Shown piece by piece: positions 8,342-55,260 of a DNA stretch of 64,000 nt (the stretch's first letter is position 1; the number at the start of each line of letters is the position of its first letter). Origin of the DNA: Octopus sinensis (taxonomy: Eukaryota); the NCBI RefSeq assembly GCF_006345805.1, contig NC_043001.1:109306001-109370000 (forward strand). The letters run 5' to 3'. Both the position numbers and the translations under genes were made by a program. Below the pieces are notes generated by a model. It had not been told where the DNA came from. It searched no databases and saw only the letters and a program-made list of their open reading frames with translations.

Positions 8342-9281
8342 GTCCTCAACGTCAGCAACAGCGTTAAAAGTCGAATCATACTTTAAGTAAATAAAATTTC
8401 TGTTGTTCTTTACTTCGCGTTTCTTGTACTAAAGTGCAACATTTCATCGCTCTTCGGTTTCCTGGCCACTCTCAAAATTCTCTATTATATGTTACACATA
8501 GAATATGTACTCCAGTCGAGTTATTATAAGCTTCATGTGGTTTACCTCCTTTATTTTTCCTTCCATTCAGTGGCCCCTTTCGACCTATTGTACTTTTGCT
8601 GTTTGACCTTTTGATGTATGGACCATTAATCATTACCAGAATTGAATCTCCCTTTTCCCTATTTAACTGTGTTCTATTCTGCTATATATTATTATTATTC
8701 CTTCCTTTCAAAAAACAAAAAAACAAAAAAAAACAGACATAAATAGGTCTTATTACTTGTCGTTTATCCTTAATGGAACTGGTTTGAACGTTTGAGATGC
8801 TACCTATACTTATTGTCACAAAAAAATGTTTGAAATATTGGTTGATTTAATATCGCCGAAAGGTGAAGTTCCTGTAACATATAATTCTTATTTCTTTAGG
8901 GGATTCTTCAGTATTTAGCAGAAAAGAAATAAAACCGTAGATGAATTACAACTGAATAAACAAACAAAATTACACACATTTATATATATAGTCAACCTAT
9001 TTAAATAGTGGTATACATGAATGCACTCAAATTTAGATATCCACACATATTCTTATAGTGGGTAGTAAAGAAATAGGTATTTCGTTTATCGTTACGTTCT
9101 GAGTTCAAATTCCGCCGAGGTCGACTTTGCCTTTCATCCTTTCGGGGTCGATAAAATAAAGTACCAGTTTCGCACTGGTGTCGATATAATCGACTTAATC
9201 CCTTTGTCTGTCCTTGTTTTTCCCCTCTATGTTTAGCCCCTTGTGGGCAGAAAAGAAATTATATATATATATATATATATA

Positions 9282-9331
<50 letters not shown>

Positions 9332-9402
9332 GTAATGTATGTATGTATGTATGTATGTATGTGTGTCTATGTATGTATATACCGTCTCACATATACATGT
9401 AA

Positions 9403-9610
9403 TCATCATCGTCGTCATCATCATCATCATCATCGACATCATCATCATCATCATCATCATCATCACCTAGTTCCCTTCACTTGTGCAGTCAGACGTTGGG
9501 GTGCAGCTTTAGGCGTTTTTGGAGTCAGCCATCACAGATCTCATAGATCTCATGTATCTTACATCTTACCTTGATGCGGTATGGACCGAGATTCCCGTTG
9601 ACGGGACTTT
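9403..9610 (-). mobile_element. Probable RTE-type LINE 3' end with (TGA)n tail; second copy at about 11240-11450
   Basis: - strand ...RSVMADSKNA* followed by a short UTR and (GAT)n, the same tail repeat as the RTE at 27117. Confidence 0.45.
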
Positions 9611-9644
9611 GGCATTAAACAGAACGTTAAACATTCACGTTATG

Positions 9645-10585
9645 CGAATTAGTAACTCCAGAACTGGAAGAAGCATGGCTGATGACAGCCATAATGTTCA
9701 ATATGAAGAATGGGGCCATGATACTGAAGGCCACAAGAACTAATAAACTCAATTACTGGGGATATGGGATCGAACTCACTACCCAGGCAACAGTAGAGGA
9801 TTTGAATAGGATTGCGGAGGAGATAGCGCTACCAGACGACTCGAGATTAAGAATGAAGGTAGAGAGCAAGACGCCTGTATGTTTTGAATGTGGAATGAAG
9901 GGCCATATGAAGGCATGGTGCACCAGAAAAAGCAGCAAGTAGAGCAGGTGGAGAGACAAGAGAGCGTGGACCAGGTAGAACATGTCGAGACAAAGGAAAA
10001 AGAAACAGAGGATGATTTTACTATGGTAAAAAAAAGAAGGAGGAACGGATGGCTAGGTTCTCCGCCAGAGAAACAGAAAAAGAAGGAAGAAGATATGAGA
10101 AAAGAAACTGTGAAGGAGGTCAGCAGGAAGGAAGACGAAGGGTGGCAGAGAAAGAAAGTAAAAAGAAAGTGGAGTTAAAAGTAAAGATACCAGTTGTTCC
10201 GGTGGAAAAGGATTCGGAAATTCAACTGGCTGAAGAGGAGATGGAGGGACTGTTTAGAGTGGAGGAGGAACAGAGAGAACAAAGAGTTCCAAATAAAGGT
10301 AAGAAAATACAAGGAGGAAATGGAGTTTGGTATTACGTGACCTACCCGAAGAATGTAGAAACAGAGAAGAAGATAGTCAAGTTTAGTCAAATAGTAAGGG
10401 TGGACGTACCATCATACATATATGCAGAGGATATGAAAGTGATAGTGATCAAAAAGGAAAATTACAGGAAACTGGAAGAAATGTGTGGAGATAGTATTGA
10501 CCCACCAGGAGTAAGGGTGGAATTCAAAGAATTGCCACCAGTAGTAGATTTAGTGGAAATTGAACCAGTGATGGAGTACTACTAA
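9645..10585 (+). pseudogene. L1/Tx1-type ORF1 (gag-like CCHC zinc knuckle), frameshifted, copy 1
   Basis: PELEEAWL...RLRMKVESKTPV-CFECGMKGHMKAWC (CX2CX4HX4C), then a K/E-rich region and a C-terminal domain ending EPVMEYY*. Confidence 0.8.
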
Positions 10586-11119
10586 AAAGTAAATAAGTAT
10601 GTTATATTGAGTGAAAAGAAAAAGAAAAGAAAAAAGCAAAAGGAAAACAAAAAAATAAAATGGAATAAAAAAAGGAGTAAAGTGTTTTATGTTATGTTTT
10701 TAAAAATATTGGGAAATAGAAGAACAATTGTAGAGAATGTATATAACGGTTCAAATACTTGCAATGGTATGTAACACGATAATTAATTCTTATGTAGATA
10801 CATGATAAAAATGGACTACATGTGATGAGGAGCCATTCATAACCTCATTGTTATATAATCATAAAGGGCGGCGAGCTGGCAGAAACGTTAGCACGCCGAG
10901 CGAAACGCGTAGGCGTATTTCGTCTGTCGTTACATTCTGAGTTCAAATTCCGCCGAGGTCGACTTTGCCTTTCATCCTTTCGGGGTCGATAAAATAAAGT
11001 ACCAGTTTCGCACTGGTGTCGATATATCGACTTAATCCCTTTGTCTGTCCTTGTTTTTCCCCTCTATGTTTAGCCCCTTGTGGGCAGAAAAGACATATAT
11101 TATATATATATATATATAA

Positions 11120-11160
<41 letters not shown>

Positions 11161-11273
11161 GTATGTATGTATGAATGATGTATGTATGTATGTAGTAGTG
11201 TTCTATGTATGTATATACCGTCTCACATATACATTTATATCATCATCGTCGTCATCATCATCATCATCATCGA

Positions 11274-11305
<32 letters not shown>

Positions 11306-11484
11306 CCTAGTTCCCTTCACTTGTGCAGTCAGACGTTGGGGTGCAGCTTTAGGCGTTTTTGGAGTCAGCCATCACAGATCTCATAGATCTCATGTATCTT
11401 ACATCTTACCTTGATGCGGTATGGACCGAGATTCCCGTTGACGGGACTTTGGCATTAAACAGAACGTTAAACATTCACGTTATG

Positions 11485-13046
11485 CGAATTAGTAACTCCA
11501 GAACTGGAAGAAGCATGGCTGATGACAGCCATAATGTTCAATATGAAGAATGGGGCCATGATACTGAAGGCCACAAGAACTAATAAACTCAATTACTGGG
11601 GATATGGGATCGAACTCACTACCCAGGCACAGTAGAGGATTTGAATAGGATTGCGGAGGAGATAGCGCTACCAGACGACTCGAGATTAAGAATGAAGGTA
11701 GAGAGCAAGACGCCTGTATGTTTTGAATGTGGAATGAAGGGCCATATGAAGGCATGGTGCACCCAGAAAAAGCAGCAAGTAGAGCAGGTGGAGAGACAAG
11801 AGAGCGTGGACCAGGTAGAACATGTCGAGACAAAGGAAAAAGAAACAGAGGATGATTTTACTATGGTAAAAAAAAGAAGGAGGAACGGATGGCTAGGTTC
11901 TCCGCCAGAGAAACAGAAAAAGAAGGAAGAAGATATGAGAAAAGAAACTGTGAAGGAGGTCAGCAGGAAGGAAGACGAAGGGTGGCAGAGAAAGAAAGTA
12001 AAAAGAAGTGGAGTTAAAAGTAAAGATACCAGTTGTTCCGGTGGAAAAGGATTCGGAAATTCAACTGGCTGAAGAGGAGATGGAGGGACTGTTTTTAGAG
12101 TGGAGGAGGAGAGGAACAGAGAGAACAAAGAGTTCCAATAAAGGTAAGAAAATACAAGGAGGAAATGGAGTTTGGTATTACGTGACCTACCCGAAGAATG
12201 TAGAAACAGAGAAGAAGATAGTCAAGTTTAGTCAAATAGTAAGGGTGGACGTACCATCATACATATATGCAGAGGATATGAAAGTGATAGTGATCAAAAA
12301 GGAAAATTACAGGAAACTGGAAGAAATGTGTGGAGATAGTATTGACCCACCAGGAGTAAGGGTGGAATTCAAAGAATTGGCCACCAGTAGTAGATTTAGT
12401 GGAAATTGAACCAGTGATGGAGTACTACTAAAAAGTAATAAGTATGTTAATTGAGTGAAAAGAAAAAGAAAAGAAAAAAGCAAAAGGAAAACAAAAAAGA
12501 AAATGGAATAAAAAAGGAGTAAAGTGTTTTATGTTATGTTTTTAAAAATATTGGAAATAGAAGAACAATTGTAGAGAATGTATATAACGGTCAAATACTT
12601 GCAATGGTATGTAACACGATAATTAATTCTTATGTAGATACATGATAAAAATGGACTACATGTGATGAGGAGCCATTCATAACCTCATTGTTATATAATC
12701 ATAAAGGGCGGCGAGCTGGCAGAAACGTTAGCACGCCGAGCGAAACGCGTAGGCGTATTTCGTCTGTCGTTACATTCTGAGTTCAAATTCCGCCGAGGTC
12801 GACTTTGCCTTTCATCCTTTCGGGGTCGATAAATTAAGTACCAGTTTCGCACTGGGGTCGATATAATCAACTTAATCCCTTTGTCTGTCTTTGTTTGTCC
12901 CCTCTATGTTTAGCCCCTTGTGGGTAGTAAAGAAATATATATAATCATCTCATCATATTCGTTCTATGTATTGTCCCCTCTGTGGTGTCCTGTCTGTCCT
13001 TGTAGGTCCCCCTCTATGTTTGGGCCCTTGTGGCTAATAAAGAAAC
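11485..13046 (+). mobile_element. ORF1-only non-LTR element, copy 2: ORF1 to stop 12431, A-rich 3' UTR interrupted by SINE-A (12707-12936), AATAAA at 13036 and a SINE-A-like tail
   Basis: SINE flanked by TSD-like TATATAATCAT; the remaining UTR ends GTCTGTCCTTGTAGGTCCCCCTCTATGTTTGGGCCCTTGTGGCTAATAAAGAAAC. Confidence 0.7.
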
Positions 13047-13800
13047 GAGTTGATTTAGCGAAGGAGAAAGATTCAGGAGTGCAACTACATGAGGGTGAAA
13101 TAGAGGAATTGTTCACGGTAGAGACAGAGAAGGAAAAAGTTTTAGTAATAGAAGATGACACGGAGCTTTTCGGTTTGAACGGCAGTTTTTTCTAGCGGTG
13201 TCATATGAAATTGTCACCCATAATTATGACCCTAGAATTGATCTATTGCATTTCAATCTGTTTTAGGGTTAGGGTTAGGGGTGGGGGAAGGATATCTTTT
13301 ATCTTCACAAATGTAAATAAACCCAATCTGTTTCTTAAACGAGGGACATATTCATACGGCACAGAATGTGTTTTTTACCTCAATAGACGTGAGTGATTGG
13401 TTGAAATTGCAGAAATTGAAGAAACAAAACAACAAATATCTTACAAACTATAGAATTTTCTCAATAAAGGCAAGAGAAAAAGATGTTTTATAAACACATT
13501 CTACCAGTATATGCAGTTTAAAATTTTTTAGTTACCTGGAAATTATGTTAAAAACTGCCGTTCAAACCGAAAAGATCCGATGACAGTGATATAGAGACAT
13601 GGTTAAGAGAAGAAACAGAAAAGGTAAAACCACCAGAAATAGAAGTAGAAAAGAGAAAACCAAGAAGAGGAAAAAATAAATGAAACTTCGTAAGATATGC
13701 CAAAAACAAGGAGGTGGAAAGAAAAATTACGAAATTTAAACATATCATAAGAGTGAAGTTACCCAAGGATGTATACTCAGAAAATGTAAAGGCCATTGTG
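13047..13800 (+). pseudogene. Older diverged paralogue of the same ORF1 C-terminal domain, split by a MITE
   Basis: EKDSGVQLHEGEIEELF vs EKDSEIQLAEEEMEGLF; *NFVRYAKNKEVERKITKFKHIIRVKLPKDVYSENVKAIV vs WYYVTYPKNVETEKKIVKFSQIVRVDVPSYIYAEDMKVIV. Confidence 0.8.
13161..13579. mobile_element. Non-autonomous DNA transposon (MITE), 30-bp TIRs, 6-bp TSD ATGACA
   Basis: TIR CGGAGCTTTTCGGTTTGAACGGCAGTTTTT matches the right end at 29/30; ATGACA at 13155-13160 and 13580-13585. Confidence 0.93.
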
Positions 13801-14100
13801 GACTTGTAGCAGTGGACAGTCAGCGCTATGGCGATCAGAGCTCGCTCTCAACACCATTGGGCTGACTGTCTGCTGATACGAGCCCACAGTCAGCGCTACG
13901 GCGATCAGAGCTCGCTCTGAGCGCCATTGGGCTGACTGTCCGCTGATACGAGCCCACAGTCAGCGCTATGGTGATCAGAGCTCGCTTTGAGCGCCATTGG
14001 GCTGACTGTCCGCTGCTACGAGCCCACAGTCAGCGCTATGGTGATCAGAGCTCACTCTGAGTGCTATTGGGCTGACTATAGGCTCGTACCAGTGGACAGT
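13799..14100. repeat. 70-bp GC-rich minisatellite (about 4 units), each a 54-bp imperfect palindrome plus a 16-bp spacer
   Basis: CAGTCAGCGCTA recurs at 13817, 13887, 13957 and 14027. Confidence 0.95.
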
Positions 14101-30073: not shown

Positions 30074-30455
30074 GGCGGCGAGCTGGCAGAAACGTTAGCA
30101 CGCCGGGCGTAATGCTGAGCGGTATTTCGTCTACCGTTACGTTCTGAGTTCAAATTCTGCCGAGGTCGACGTTGCCTTTCATCCTTTAGGGGTCGACTAA
30201 ATAAGTACCAGTTACGCACTGGGTCGATATAATCGACTTAATCTGTTTGTCTGTCCTTATTTGTCCTCTCTGTGTTTAACCCCTTGTGGGTAGTAAAGAA
30301 ATAGGTATTTCATGTGTCTTTACGTTCTAAGTTCAAACTCCGCTGAGGTCGACTTTACGTTTCATCCTTTCGGAGTCGATAAATTAAGTACCAGTTACGT
30401 ACTTGGGTCGATCTAAATCTCCCAAAAATTCGGGCCTTGTCCCTAGAGCAGAAAT
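30074..30455 (+). mobile_element. SINE-A dimer: head + type-1 body + type-2 body
   Basis: Junction AAAGAAATA|GGTATTTC at about 30303; flanking TSD TTAATATAA(T/G)TTA at 30057 and 30455. Confidence 0.9.
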
Positions 30456-47486: not shown

Positions 47487-48321
47487 CATCATGTCTTCAT
47501 TTTCCATTTGAGGGGAATGCTAATGGTCGAGAAATTATTACAGACCATATGTAAATTATTTTGGAAGCTGGGCATTGTTTTGATGCAACGATCAATGATT
47601 TGGTTTCACCAATGGGTTGAAGACATGAGAGAGAGCTTATAACCGTATCAGTGGTCGCTTCGATTTATTGGAAGATTTTTTATTGTTGCTGTAGTTTAAC
47701 TGACCGACGTTGAAATACGCTTCTTTCCTCATCATTTCATCTTATGTTTAGAGTCAGTGAGTATAAAATTGTTTGAAATTTTCACACAAGGCCGGCGATA
47801 GACTACAGTCGATTACATATATTATAGTATTTAAATGTTACTTTATCTTACCGATCTTAAAACGATGAAAGGCTAAGCTGACTTTTGAATTCAGATTAAG
47901 GAAAGCCGTAAGAAACAACGCTAAGCATTTAGTTCGATGCACTAATGATTCTACCAGTTCGCTGCTTTAATGGTTTGAAATTTTGGCACGAGGCCAGCAA
48001 TACTAGCAAGGAACATTATCGACTATATTAACAACAATTGCTCGACTACTATTTATTTTACTGACACCGAAAGAATGAAAGACAAGTTTGCCCTCAGCGG
48101 GGGGTTTGAACTCATATTGTGTATAACATTATGATATCCAGTGTATCAACGCTTTTTCAAGATGATAATAGGGCGTGAATTTCTCGAAAGGCTCGACTCC
48201 TTTTTCTATACAGGTCATACAATTTCTGATTTTCTTCCATTCATTTTTTTTATGTAAGGTTGATAGAATTGTGTAGTGTTGTACAACATTTGTCAGTCTA
48301 TGAGCTTATATTTGTTGTTGT

Positions 48322-48902
48322 TTATTTATTGTCCACAAGGGGCTAAACATAGAGTGGACAAACAAGAAGAGACGAGGGGATTTAGTCGATTATATCGACC
48401 CCAGTGCTTAACTAGTACTTATTTAATCGACCCCGAAAGAATAAAAGGCAAAGTCGACTTCGGCGGAATTCGAACTCAGAACATAGCGGCAGACAAAATA
48501 CCTATTTCTTTACTACCCACAGAGAGGAAAAACAAATACAGACAAACGGATTAAGTCAATTATATCGACTCCATTGCACAACTGGTACTTATTTAATCGA
48601 CCCCGAAAGGATGAAAGGTAAAGTCGACCTCGGCGGAGTTTGAACTCAGAACATAGCGGCAGACGAAATACCTATTTCTTTACTACCCACAAGGGCTAAA
48701 CACAGAGAGGACAAACAAAGACAGACAAACGGATTAAGACGATTATATCGACCTCAGTGCGCAACTGGTACTTATTTAATCGACCCCGAAAGGACGAAAG
48801 GCAAAGTCGTCCTCGGCGGAATTTGAACTCAGAATGTAACGGCAGAGGAAATACCGCTAAGAATTTCGCCCGGCGTGCTAACGCTTCTGCCAGCTCGCCG
48901 CC
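48322..48902 (-). mobile_element. SINE-A trimer: one head + three bodies
   Basis: Junctions (+ strand AAATACC|TATTTCTTT) at about 48502 and 48672. Confidence 0.92.
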
Positions 48903-49584
48903 TTCTATGAGCTTATTTTGACGGGGTGATTGTTGCTTCTCAAACATCCAAATTCAGTTAAAACACACCAATCAGATACTTTGACTGGAATATATCGATT
49001 ACAACGCCTCCTCCAAATCTGATTCTTGCCTTAGGATTCCTTCAGCAACTGATTCCTCTTTTTTTTTTTTTTTTGATGATGAGCAAATTCCTTACAAATC
49101 AAATATTTCAAAGTAATAGTCTACTTGAAAGCAAAACGAAAAAAAAAAGGTCTCGTGTTCGAATTTTGATCAGTTTGACGTTGTCTCTGTATTTCACCCT
49201 ACGAACTAGAGATGATCCGTTTGCTTGCTCTGTTACACGGAGTGCAAGTCATGTGGCTAAGAATTTAAAAGTGCTAGGCATACAGTCATAAAAGGTCGCG
49301 GGTTCGACTTCCGGAATTCCTGAGCCGAGCGCTCATATAAACACATACACACACCTATACGCACACACCTATACCAACAAAAGTTTTTTAATGAATGCAC
49401 TGAAAATAGTCAATACAAAGACCTAACGCACACACATACACAACGCCTTAATTAAATAAGGAAATGAATAATATCGTTCCAAGTTCGTTTATACGGTCTA
49501 GCACCTTGAACAAATGTCTTTCACTGTAGCCTCATGTTGATAACAGCGTTCCATTCGGCAGACAGAAACTGAAGTACGTCGCGC

Positions 49585-54346: not shown

Positions 54347-55260
54347 GCGGAATTTGAACTCAGAATGTAAAGACAGGTGATATAAAGCTAAGCCTGTTGT
54401 CCGGTGCTAACGATTCTTTTCTACTAAGGCCTGAACTTGGGGGGAGGGTGATAGTCGATTACATCGACCATAGTGCGCCACTGGTACTTAAGGATGAAAG
54501 GCAGAGTCGGCCTTGGTGGAATTTGAACTCAGAACGTAGCGGCAGACGGTAATACCTATTTCTTTACTACCCACTAGGGACTAAACATAGAAGGGACAAA
54601 TAAAGTCAGACAAACGAATTAAGTCGATTATATCGACCCCAGTGCGTAACTGGTAGTTATTTAATCGACGCCGAAAGGATGAAAGGCAAAGTCAACCTCG
54701 GCGGAATTTGAACTCAGAACGTAGCGGAAGACGAAATACCTATTTCTTTATTACCCACAAGGGCCAAACATAGAACGGACAAACAAGGACAGACATAGGT
54801 ATTAAGTCGATTACATCGACCCCAGTGCGTAACTGGTACTTATTTAATCGATCCCGAAAGGATGAAAGGCAAAGTCGACCTCGGCGGAATTTGAACTGAC
54901 AACGTAACGGCAGACGAAATACCGAAAAGCATTTCCCCCGGCGCGCTAACGTTTCTGACAGCTCGCTGCCTGAATAATAATAATGATTGATAATAATAAT
55001 AATAATAATCATCTTTTCTACTCTAGGCACAGGGCCTGAAATTTTTAGGGGAGGGGGCCAGTCGATTAGATCGACCCTAGTACGCAACGGGTACTTAATT
55101 TAATTAATTAATTAATAAATAATAATAATAATAATATAATAATAATAATAATAATAATAATAGTAATGGTTTCGAACTTTGGCTGATGCCAGCATGTTTG
55201 AGGGAGGGGGTAAATCGATTACATCGGCCTAACTGCTGAACTGCTATGTTATTGATCCCG
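54347..55260 (-). mobile_element. SINE-A stack: head + two type-1 bodies + type-2 body (54411-54970), plus further type-2 fragments separated by (TAA)n
   Basis: Junctions at about 54556 and 54740; tails at about 55010 and 55165. Confidence 0.88.

What the first reader, a model, noticed from the sequence alone, without database searches (positions are those of the whole stretch)
11485..13046. ORF1-only (half-L1-like) retroelement that shares its 3' tail with the dominant SINE
Seen: a CCHC-knuckle ORF stops at 12431. After removing one SINE-A insertion (TSD-like TATATAATCAT), only about 370 bp remain before AATAAA and the terminus GTCTGTCCTTG..CCCCTCTATGTTT..GCCCTTGTGG..AATAAAGAAAC, which matches the type-1 tail of SINE-A. 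There is no room for an ORF2. Known: SINEs borrow 3' tails from partner LINEs, and ORF1-only L1 derivatives (HAL1) exist in mammals. Inference: a three-part system made of an autonomous L1/Tx1-clade LINE (not in this window), an ORF1-only passenger family, and a SINE using the same RT recognition tail.
Basis: partly seen in the sequence, partly recalled or inferred. Interest (0 to 1): 0.8.

Follow-up and report, generated by a model that had tools for sequence, protein, structure and literature searches.

The report
Octopus half-LINE sharing a SINE tail
This is a broken copy of a widespread octopus jumping gene that carries only the RNA-packaging protein of a LINE, ends in the same short tail as a common SINE and as complete LINEs found elsewhere in the genome, and likely borrows those LINEs' copying enzyme to spread.

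Summary
The architecture is confirmed; the boundaries need correcting. The window copy (11487-13046) is a 5'-truncated, frameshifted member of a dispersed ORF1-only retroelement family. A SINE has inserted into its 3' UTR (the site is empty in 41 of 48 other copies), and the copy is the second unit of a 1.84-kb local duplication. Full-length elements are about 1.7-2.0 kb with a 430-470 aa ORF1 (predicted RRM-RRM-CCHC plus a lineage-specific C-terminal domain). Of 154 sampled ORF1 sites of this type, 125 run into the tail. The one scored as followed by ORF2 was a 26%-identity misassignment. They form one clade apart from ORF2-bearing ORF1s, show purifying selection, and 26 of 40 copies have TSDs. 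A young subfamily and a second ORF1-only lineage are intact, often in head-to-tail arrays. The predicted partner exists: intact L1/Tx1-type LINEs (APE-RT-zinc finger) whose last 35 nt match the SINE (83%) and this family (80%). All share a small hairpin before AATAAA. It works like HAL1/HeT-A/Ag-Sponge but is not HAL1. Trans-mobilisation is inferred, not shown.

The parts
11487..13046 (+). 5'-truncated copy of the ORF1-only retroelement (window subfamily), with SINE insertion
   Evidence: 77-88% identity to dispersed copies; other copies extend about 600 nt further 5' and end at the same place
11495..12431 (+). ORF1 remnant (last two thirds), three frame changes, stop TAA 12429-12431
   Evidence: tblastn against the natural open frame of L005; ORF list
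11719..11760 (+). CX2CX4HX4C zinc knuckle
   Evidence: sequence; Pfam zf-CCHC E 0.052 here, under cut-off; E 0.0003, over cut-off, in the LINE ORF1 homologue
12432..12702 (+). 3' UTR, first part
   Evidence: shared with other copies
12692..12702 (+). left TSD of the SINE (TATATAATCAT); right copy 12938-12948
   Evidence: empty site in 41 of 48 copies
12703..12937 (+). SINE insertion; its own tail 12882-12935 resembles the element's tail
   Evidence: A/B-box-like motifs by eye only; ARAGORN found no tRNA
12949..13046 (+). rest of 3' UTR and conserved tail (12991-13046); no poly(A) run
13023..13041 (+). predicted 4-bp hairpin GGCC[CTTGT]GGCT (13023-13035) followed by AATAAA (13036-13041)
   Evidence: hairpin survey of nine tail classes; pair counts
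9077..11100 (+). upstream unit of a 1.84-kb tandem duplication: SINE piece, microsatellite, spacer, the same truncated element (about 9647-10862) and a chimeric SINE
   Evidence: 97.6% to 10915-12940; 1 substitution and 14 short gaps in 1,475 columns; middle SINE switches from one parent to the other
13047..13800 (+). fragment of another ORF1-only subfamily (13047-13160 and 13580-13800) split by a 419-nt element with 30-nt terminal inverted repeats (13161-13579)
   Evidence: 83-90% to L070/L063/L065/L090; TIRs

Best explanation
The window holds a dead, 5'-truncated copy of a dispersed octopus retroelement that encodes only a LINE ORF1 protein and ends in a tail shared with a SINE and with intact L1/Tx1-type LINEs of the same genome, whose reverse transcriptase likely copies it in trans. 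SHOWN: ORF1-then-tail architecture, a separate clade, purifying selection on ORF1, 5' truncation with TSDs, intact young copies, partner LINEs with the same tail. INFERRED: the element's RNA would be translated to an RRM-RRM-CCHC protein that coats it. The ORF2 of a family-B LINE would bind the 3' hairpin/AATAAAGAAA end (stringent recognition, no poly(A) seen), nick a preferred target and reverse transcribe. The SINE would use the same enzyme through the same tail. ORF1 is likely kept because it acts in cis on its own RNA.
For: Architecture: 223 distinct knuckle sites in fetched loci. Of 154 of this type, 112 are followed by the tail (median 904 nt on), 35 by neither tail nor ORF2, 6 had too little flank, and 1 scored ORF2 but was a 26% misassignment. 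Of 69 LINE-type sites, 52 are followed by APE. Of the 35, 13 gain a tail with a broader profile; 7 of 9 read by eye are cut by other insertions or unrelated sequence. Tree: ORF1-only clade SH-aLRT 100 with no ORF2-bearing member (quick trees). Selection: median dN/dS 0.13-0.28 in 144 pairs binned up to dS 2, of 595 pairs (361 saturated); in 28 copies of the window subfamily pN/pS is 0.67 for single-copy variants (21 stops), 0.35 for 2-3 copies (4 stops), 0.16 for 4 or more (0 stops). TSDs: 26 of 40 scorable copies (48 examined) versus 3% of shuffled pairs. Intact: 33 stop-free frames of 427-514 codons in the young subfamilies; 1.7-kb head-to-tail arrays. Partner: ORF2 with RVT_1, Exo_endo_phos, zf-RVT (family A); family-B ORF2 best solved match human L1 ORF2p E 1e-65, R2 E 3e-26. 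Last 35 nt, median identity: SINE-LINE B3 0.83, window family-B3 0.80, young subfamily-B3 0.91, family A 0.57-0.63, shuffled 0.49-0.50. Hairpin in the 17 nt before the signal in 130 of 169 tails over nine classes (shuffled 11-35%; 3 in the next 17 nt upstream), with stems GCCC/GGGT, GGCC/GGCT, GATT/AATC. Fold: two RRM-like domains.
Against: No retrotransposition or binding assay. Loci were chosen by best score, so counts are not a census; a rare ORF2-bearing LINE with this ORF1 type could be missed. 21 sites have neither tail nor ORF2 in the DNA held, and one has a 31% RT fragment 2.1 kb away. L271 has an ORF1-only 5' half joined to other ORF1 sequence and an ORF2, and L074-L076/L270 have a Penelope-like RT in ORF1; I read both as nested insertions. 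The hairpin has only 4 pairs, was picked by me from the sequences, is out of register in the MAFFT alignment for several classes, and one of five measures does not beat shuffles (465/500) and another does not either (313/500). No intact copy of the window's own subfamily was found (longest frames 337-363 aa). The window copy has no TSD that I could see by eye. Its subfamily's tail is only 80% like present family B, so its actual partner may be an extinct relative.
Confidence: 0.88

Rival explanations
1. The copies are repeated, independent internal deletions of an ordinary two-ORF LINE rather than a self-perpetuating ORF1-only lineage.
For: ORF1 is homologous to LINE ORF1 (27-35% over up to about 280 aa) and the tail is LINE-like; sampling was score-biased.
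Against: ORF1-only sequences form their own clade down to about 40% identity; their C-terminal domain profile matches none of 16 LINE or second-lineage C-termini (best E 1.5); the stop-to-tail distance is constant within a subfamily; shared variants are under selection.
Confidence: 0.04
2. The element is mobilised by L1/Tx1 enzymes in a relaxed way; the shared tail reflects descent and a polyadenylation signal, not recognition.
For: Much of the conserved end is AATAAAGAAA; most L1-clade LINEs share no tail with SINEs (PMC3472496, passages); the stem is short.
Against: No poly(A) run follows the tail in the copies read; stem pairing is kept while stem letters change between families; the young subfamily's tail is closer to present LINE B3 (0.91) than to its own older relatives (0.80-0.83).
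Confidence: 0.15
3. A host gene family domesticated from LINE ORF1 (ZCCHC3- or L1TD1-like) spread by DNA duplication.
For: Purifying selection; intact tandem arrays; Atlas look-alike cluster 'ZCCHC3-like' at 0.91.
Against: 5' truncations, TSDs, many dead dispersed copies, unrelated flanks, LINE tail; new single-copy variants include stops.
Confidence: 0.03

Closest known systems
HAL1 (half-L1) of mammals
   Same: Non-autonomous L1-group derivative encoding only ORF1p; several origins (PMC5753468, passages).
   Different: Invertebrate; type I ORF1 (RRM + CCHC) rather than the mammalian Transposase_22 type (types as in PMC5203782, passages); specific hairpin tail without poly(A), shared with a SINE. 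The original HAL1 paper was not available.
HeT-A and related ORF1-only telomeric Jockey elements; Ag-Sponge (CR1)
   Same: ORF1-present non-autonomous LINEs (PMC5786205, passages); ORF1-only lineages that give rise to new families (PMC13534243, passages); head-to-tail arrays.
   Different: Different LINE clade; dispersed at interstitial sites on many contigs, not tied to telomeres as far as the coordinates show.
Tx1-clade LINEs and SINEU/Tx1-Mar of crocodilians
   Same: Target preference for other repeats; a SINE partner mobilised by Tx1 (PMC4494074, passages).
   Different: SINEU ends in poly(A) and was linked by shared targets; here the link is a shared tail, with ORF1-only passengers as well.
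Stringent L1-clade SINE/LINE pairs (maize ZmSINE2/3 with LINE1-1_ZM; Chlamydomonas SINEX-3_CR with L1-1_CR)
   Same: Shared 3' end with a hairpin and compensatory changes (PMC3472496, passages).
   Different: That 2012 survey found only three L1-tailed SINEs among 58, all in plants or algae; this case is in an animal.
Octopus 'L1-Tx1' families in repeat annotations
   Same: 13 recently active L1-Tx1 families are listed for O. vulgaris (PMC13282606, first third read); likely overlap with the LINEs found here.
   Different: The part read gives no ORF1-only family and no SINE-LINE pairing; its library and supplements were not seen.

Membership tests
ORF1-present non-autonomous LINE (HAL1/HeT-A/Ag-Sponge kind) | Encodes ORF1 only, no ORF2 | tested here: met
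ORF1-present non-autonomous LINE (HAL1/HeT-A/Ag-Sponge kind) | Spreads as a unit by retrotransposition (5' truncation, TSD, fixed 3' end) | tested here: met
   26 of 40 TSDs versus 3% null; ends
ORF1-present non-autonomous LINE (HAL1/HeT-A/Ag-Sponge kind) | ORF1 homologous to that of an autonomous LINE present in the genome | tested here: met
ORF1-present non-autonomous LINE (HAL1/HeT-A/Ag-Sponge kind) | Mobilised in trans by the partner's ORF2 | not testable with these tools
   inferred from the shared tail
HAL1 proper (mammalian) | Derived from mammalian L1 with type II (Transposase_22) ORF1 | tested here: not met
   Pfam gave only zf-CCHC-level hits; the model is RRM-RRM-CCHC; relatives are named from octopods
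Tx1 clade (partner LINE) | ORF2 with APE, RT and C-terminal zinc finger, L1 group | tested here: met
Tx1 clade (partner LINE) | Type I ORF1 (RRM + CCHC) | tested here: met
   definition from PMC5203782
Tx1 clade (partner LINE) | Target preference | tested here: inconclusive
   12 of 52 3' flanks of the window family hit one short repeat versus 0 of 50 SINE flanks and 8 of 2,000 random pieces; conserved flanks behind older LINEs seen but not counted
Tx1 clade (partner LINE) | RT groups with labelled Tx1 elements in a tree | not tested
   no labelled Tx1 reference was returned by a tool (one search hits are mostly unnamed)
tRNA-derived SINE (insert at 12703-12937) | tRNA-like head with A and B boxes | tested here: inconclusive
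   box-like motifs by eye; ARAGORN and Rfam found no tRNA
MetaSINE / CORE-SINE superfamily | Conserved central domain | not tested
   resemblance recalled from memory only; reference sequences not obtained

The most novel reading that the evidence does not exclude
[quoted passage not shown] Support for the last step: at -60 to -36 the SINE is 80-84% like the window family but only 52-72% like any LINE class sampled. This would be an animal L1-group system with stringent tail recognition and a three-way contest for one enzyme.
Probability: 0.3. Interest if true: 0.75.

Novelty: new variant of a known kind. Interest (0 to 1): 0.6.

Why it matters
ORF1-only LINE derivatives are described from mammals, Drosophila telomeres and a mosquito; my searches found none from cephalopods or the Tx1 clade, but Repbase, Dfam, subscription journals and supplements were not searchable. 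The finding names a candidate partner LINE for a common octopus SINE; SINEs make up 11.6% of the O. vulgaris genome (PMC13282606). It would add an animal case to the very short list of L1-group LINEs with a sequence-specific tail. Intact young LINE, half-LINE and SINE copies with one shared tail make two old questions directly testable: why ORF1 is kept by passengers when SINEs do without it, and how stringent L1-group tail recognition is. It also warns that many 'CCHC-type' octopus gene models are these elements.

Tried and rejected
Repeat finder on the whole window was swamped by microsatellites. Rfam and ARAGORN: nothing relevant. Word-based protein search with the intact ORF1 found nothing, though the profile search did. 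First candidate partner, LINE family A, has a homologous but AT-rich tail (0.57-0.63) and was set aside in favour of family B. The apparent ORF1-RT fusions in L074-L076 were rejected as a Penelope-like insertion with an inverted repeat. The codon-model omega from IQ-TREE was not printed. The hairpin count had an anchoring error that cut the stem in three classes; it was redone and only that count is used. One versus two origins of the ORF1-only lineages is unresolved (AU p 0.278); the careful tree did not finish, so all trees are quick trees. The single-sequence model of the C-terminal domain failed (pLDDT 41), so no fold search was run on it; its fold is untested. Expression: no RNA holder listed on record; contigs from 4 runs cover 28-30 of 30 bins of a young unit, but RNA status is a guess. 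Earlier scan findings: none. Outputs were partly cut from view.

Full report
OBSERVATION. The knuckle (11719-11760), stop (12429-12431), SINE (12703-12937) with its 11-nt TSD, 369 nt of remaining 3' sequence and the tail to 13046 are as described. The 55-nt tail matches SINE tails in the window at 78-87%. Three corrections. The reading frame is broken in three places. The start at 11485 is a truncation junction: copies elsewhere share about 600 nt more and begin ORF1 about 140 codons earlier. And the region 10915-12940 is duplicated at 9077-11100. The two units differ by 1 substitution and 14 short gaps in 1,475 columns, and the SINE between them switches from one flanking SINE's letters to the other's. 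That fits unequal exchange between SINEs or an assembly error; I could not tell which. Some frame breaks may therefore be sequencing errors, but the copy is truncated and dead either way.

A FAMILY, NOT A ONE-OFF DELETION. G000 (2.72 Gb) gave 320 first-look candidates for the DNA (40 scored), 1,915 for the tail (40 scored) and 25,605 for the ORF1 protein (123 scored, 39-100% identity); these are not copy numbers. The SINE site is empty in 41 of 48 copies. In the 29 non-self loci of the tail search the tail follows the element's own 3' UTR. TSDs of 10 or more matched bases flank 26 of 40 scorable copies, against 3% in shuffled pairs. Over all loci fetched by then I found 223 distinct knuckle sites. 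Of 154 of the ORF1-only type, 112 lead to the tail, 35 to neither, 6 had too little flank, and 1 was a 26%-identity misassignment; 52 of 69 LINE-type sites lead to APE. Of the 35, 13 have a tail by a broader profile, 21 have neither, and 1 has a distant 31% RT piece. Of nine read by eye, seven are cut by other insertions or unrelated sequence and two are duplicates of one locus. The sample is biased towards best-scoring hits.

ORF1. Young subfamilies are intact: 33 stop-free frames of 427-514 codons, many in 1.7-kb head-to-tail arrays. The AlphaFold model of one (57-row alignment, pLDDT 75.7) has two alpha/beta domains, a knuckle, a disordered linker and a confident C-terminal domain. Foldseek and VIA-align match tandem RRM proteins (E 4e-5; Z 8.6, rmsd 2.7 over 76 residues); these scores are modest. 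The C-terminal domain profile hits none of 16 LINE or second-lineage C-termini but hits two proteins named from O. bimaculoides (E 6e-31, 9e-11). So this ORF1 type also occurs in that species, though I could not see what follows it there. Selection: dN/dS medians 0.13-0.28 between ORF1-only sequences; in the window subfamily pN/pS falls from 0.67 (single-copy variants, 21 stops) to 0.16 (shared by 4 or more copies, 0 stops). That is the pattern expected if source copies needed ORF1 and inserted copies decay. In quick trees the main ORF1-only group is one side of a branch at SH-aLRT 100 (93 with outside proteins).

A SECOND LINEAGE. Sites first scored as LINE-type but followed by a tail led to another young ORF1-only family: 29 of 30 loci have the tail, typically about 150 nt after the stop, and none has APE. 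Whether the two lineages share one origin is unresolved (AU p 0.278).

THE PARTNER. An RT remnant in L109 led to intact LINEs. Family A has ORF1 of about 480 aa and ORF2 of about 1,130 aa with APE, RT and zf-RVT, and an AT-rich version of the tail. Family B (three subfamilies, many 1,126-1,135-codon open ORF2s) ends in nearly the SINE's tail. Its ORF2 is closest to human L1 ORF2p among solved structures, and its best named relative is from Argonauta hians (64%). Median identity of the last 35 nt: SINE-B3 0.83, window family-B3 0.80, young subfamily-B3 0.91, family A 0.57-0.63, shuffled 0.49-0.50. In the 25 nt upstream the SINE is closest to the window family (0.80-0.84, against 0.52-0.72 for LINE classes). 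A 4-pair hairpin sits just before AATAAA in 130 of 169 tails over nine classes, with different stem letters in different families. The formal pair count supports it on three of five measures and is weakened by alignment register and by my having chosen the structure. No poly(A) run follows in the copies read.

MECHANISM. Shown: architecture, clade, selection, TPRT-like ends, partner with the same tail. Inferred: translation of ORF1, cis packaging, binding of family-B (or ancestral) ORF2 to the hairpin tail, and target-primed reverse transcription. From the literature: ORF1-present non-autonomous LINEs are HeT-A, HAL1 and Ag-Sponge (PMC5786205, passages); Tx1 elements often prefer other repeats as targets (PMC4494074, passages), which fits 12 of 52 flanks hitting one short repeat; L1-tailed SINEs were 3 of 58 in a 2012 survey (PMC3472496, passages).

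KNOWN OR NEW. It works like HAL1 and HeT-A but fails HAL1 membership on ORF1 type and host. Tx1 membership of the partner rests on domain content, not on a labelled tree. Passages read in PMC9115989, PMC8967140, PMC4824008, PMC5203782, PMC13534243, PMC5753468 and the first third of PMC13282606 describe no octopus ORF1-only family or this pairing. Supplements and repeat libraries were not seen and could hold these families under other names. Verdict: a real, well-supported new variant of a known kind; the window copy itself is an unremarkable dead fragment. Interest 0.6.

Noticed in passing
window 9077-12940: Tandem 1.84-kb duplication bounded by SINE copies with a chimeric SINE in the middle; real unequal exchange or assembly error.
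   Followed up: partly
window 13161-13579; also L012, L019, L027, L032, L042, L095: A 419-nt element with 30-nt terminal inverted repeats (MITE-like) recurs inside or next to these retroelements.
   Followed up: no
window 13797-14100; similar in L015: Tandem repeat with a 70-nt, partly palindromic unit.
   Followed up: no
L013 (inverted copy near 770-890) and flanks of L016, L017, L024, L028, L041, L044, L056, L057: A short repeat of about 110 nt with TG...CA-like ends is a preferred insertion site of the window family (12 of 52 3' flanks); possibly a tiny solo LTR.
   Followed up: partly
L161-L190, behind the LINE tails: Older L1/Tx1 families are followed by family-specific conserved repeats with a CTGATGA...GAAAC core resembling a hammerhead ribozyme (resemblance recalled, not tested).
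   Followed up: no
L141, L144, L153, L160 upstream junctions: Full-length family-A LINEs start a short distance (roughly 15-50 nt) downstream of TATA-like motifs in the target, as if borrowing a promoter; seen by eye.
   Followed up: no
L063, L065, L066: Other L1/Tx1-type elements have inserted antisense at nearly the same spot near the end of the half-LINE ORF1, suggesting these elements target each other.
   Followed up: no
L391-L420; G000:C6:70545043-70560125: Second young ORF1-only lineage with intact frames and an array of nine hits at about 1.75-kb spacing.
   Followed up: partly
L033, L038, L039, L046-L050 (G000:C21 near 2.404-2.407 Mb): The last 144 nt of the element have become a tandem minisatellite.
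   Followed up: no
L270 / L074-L076: Penelope-like RT element with an inverted terminal repeat inserted in an ORF1, present in three near-identical copies.
   Followed up: partly
window 54544-54970, 48321-48910, 30074-30416: SINEs often occur as a full unit followed by partial second units starting at SINE position 53 (8 of 51 flanks in fetched loci).
   Followed up: no
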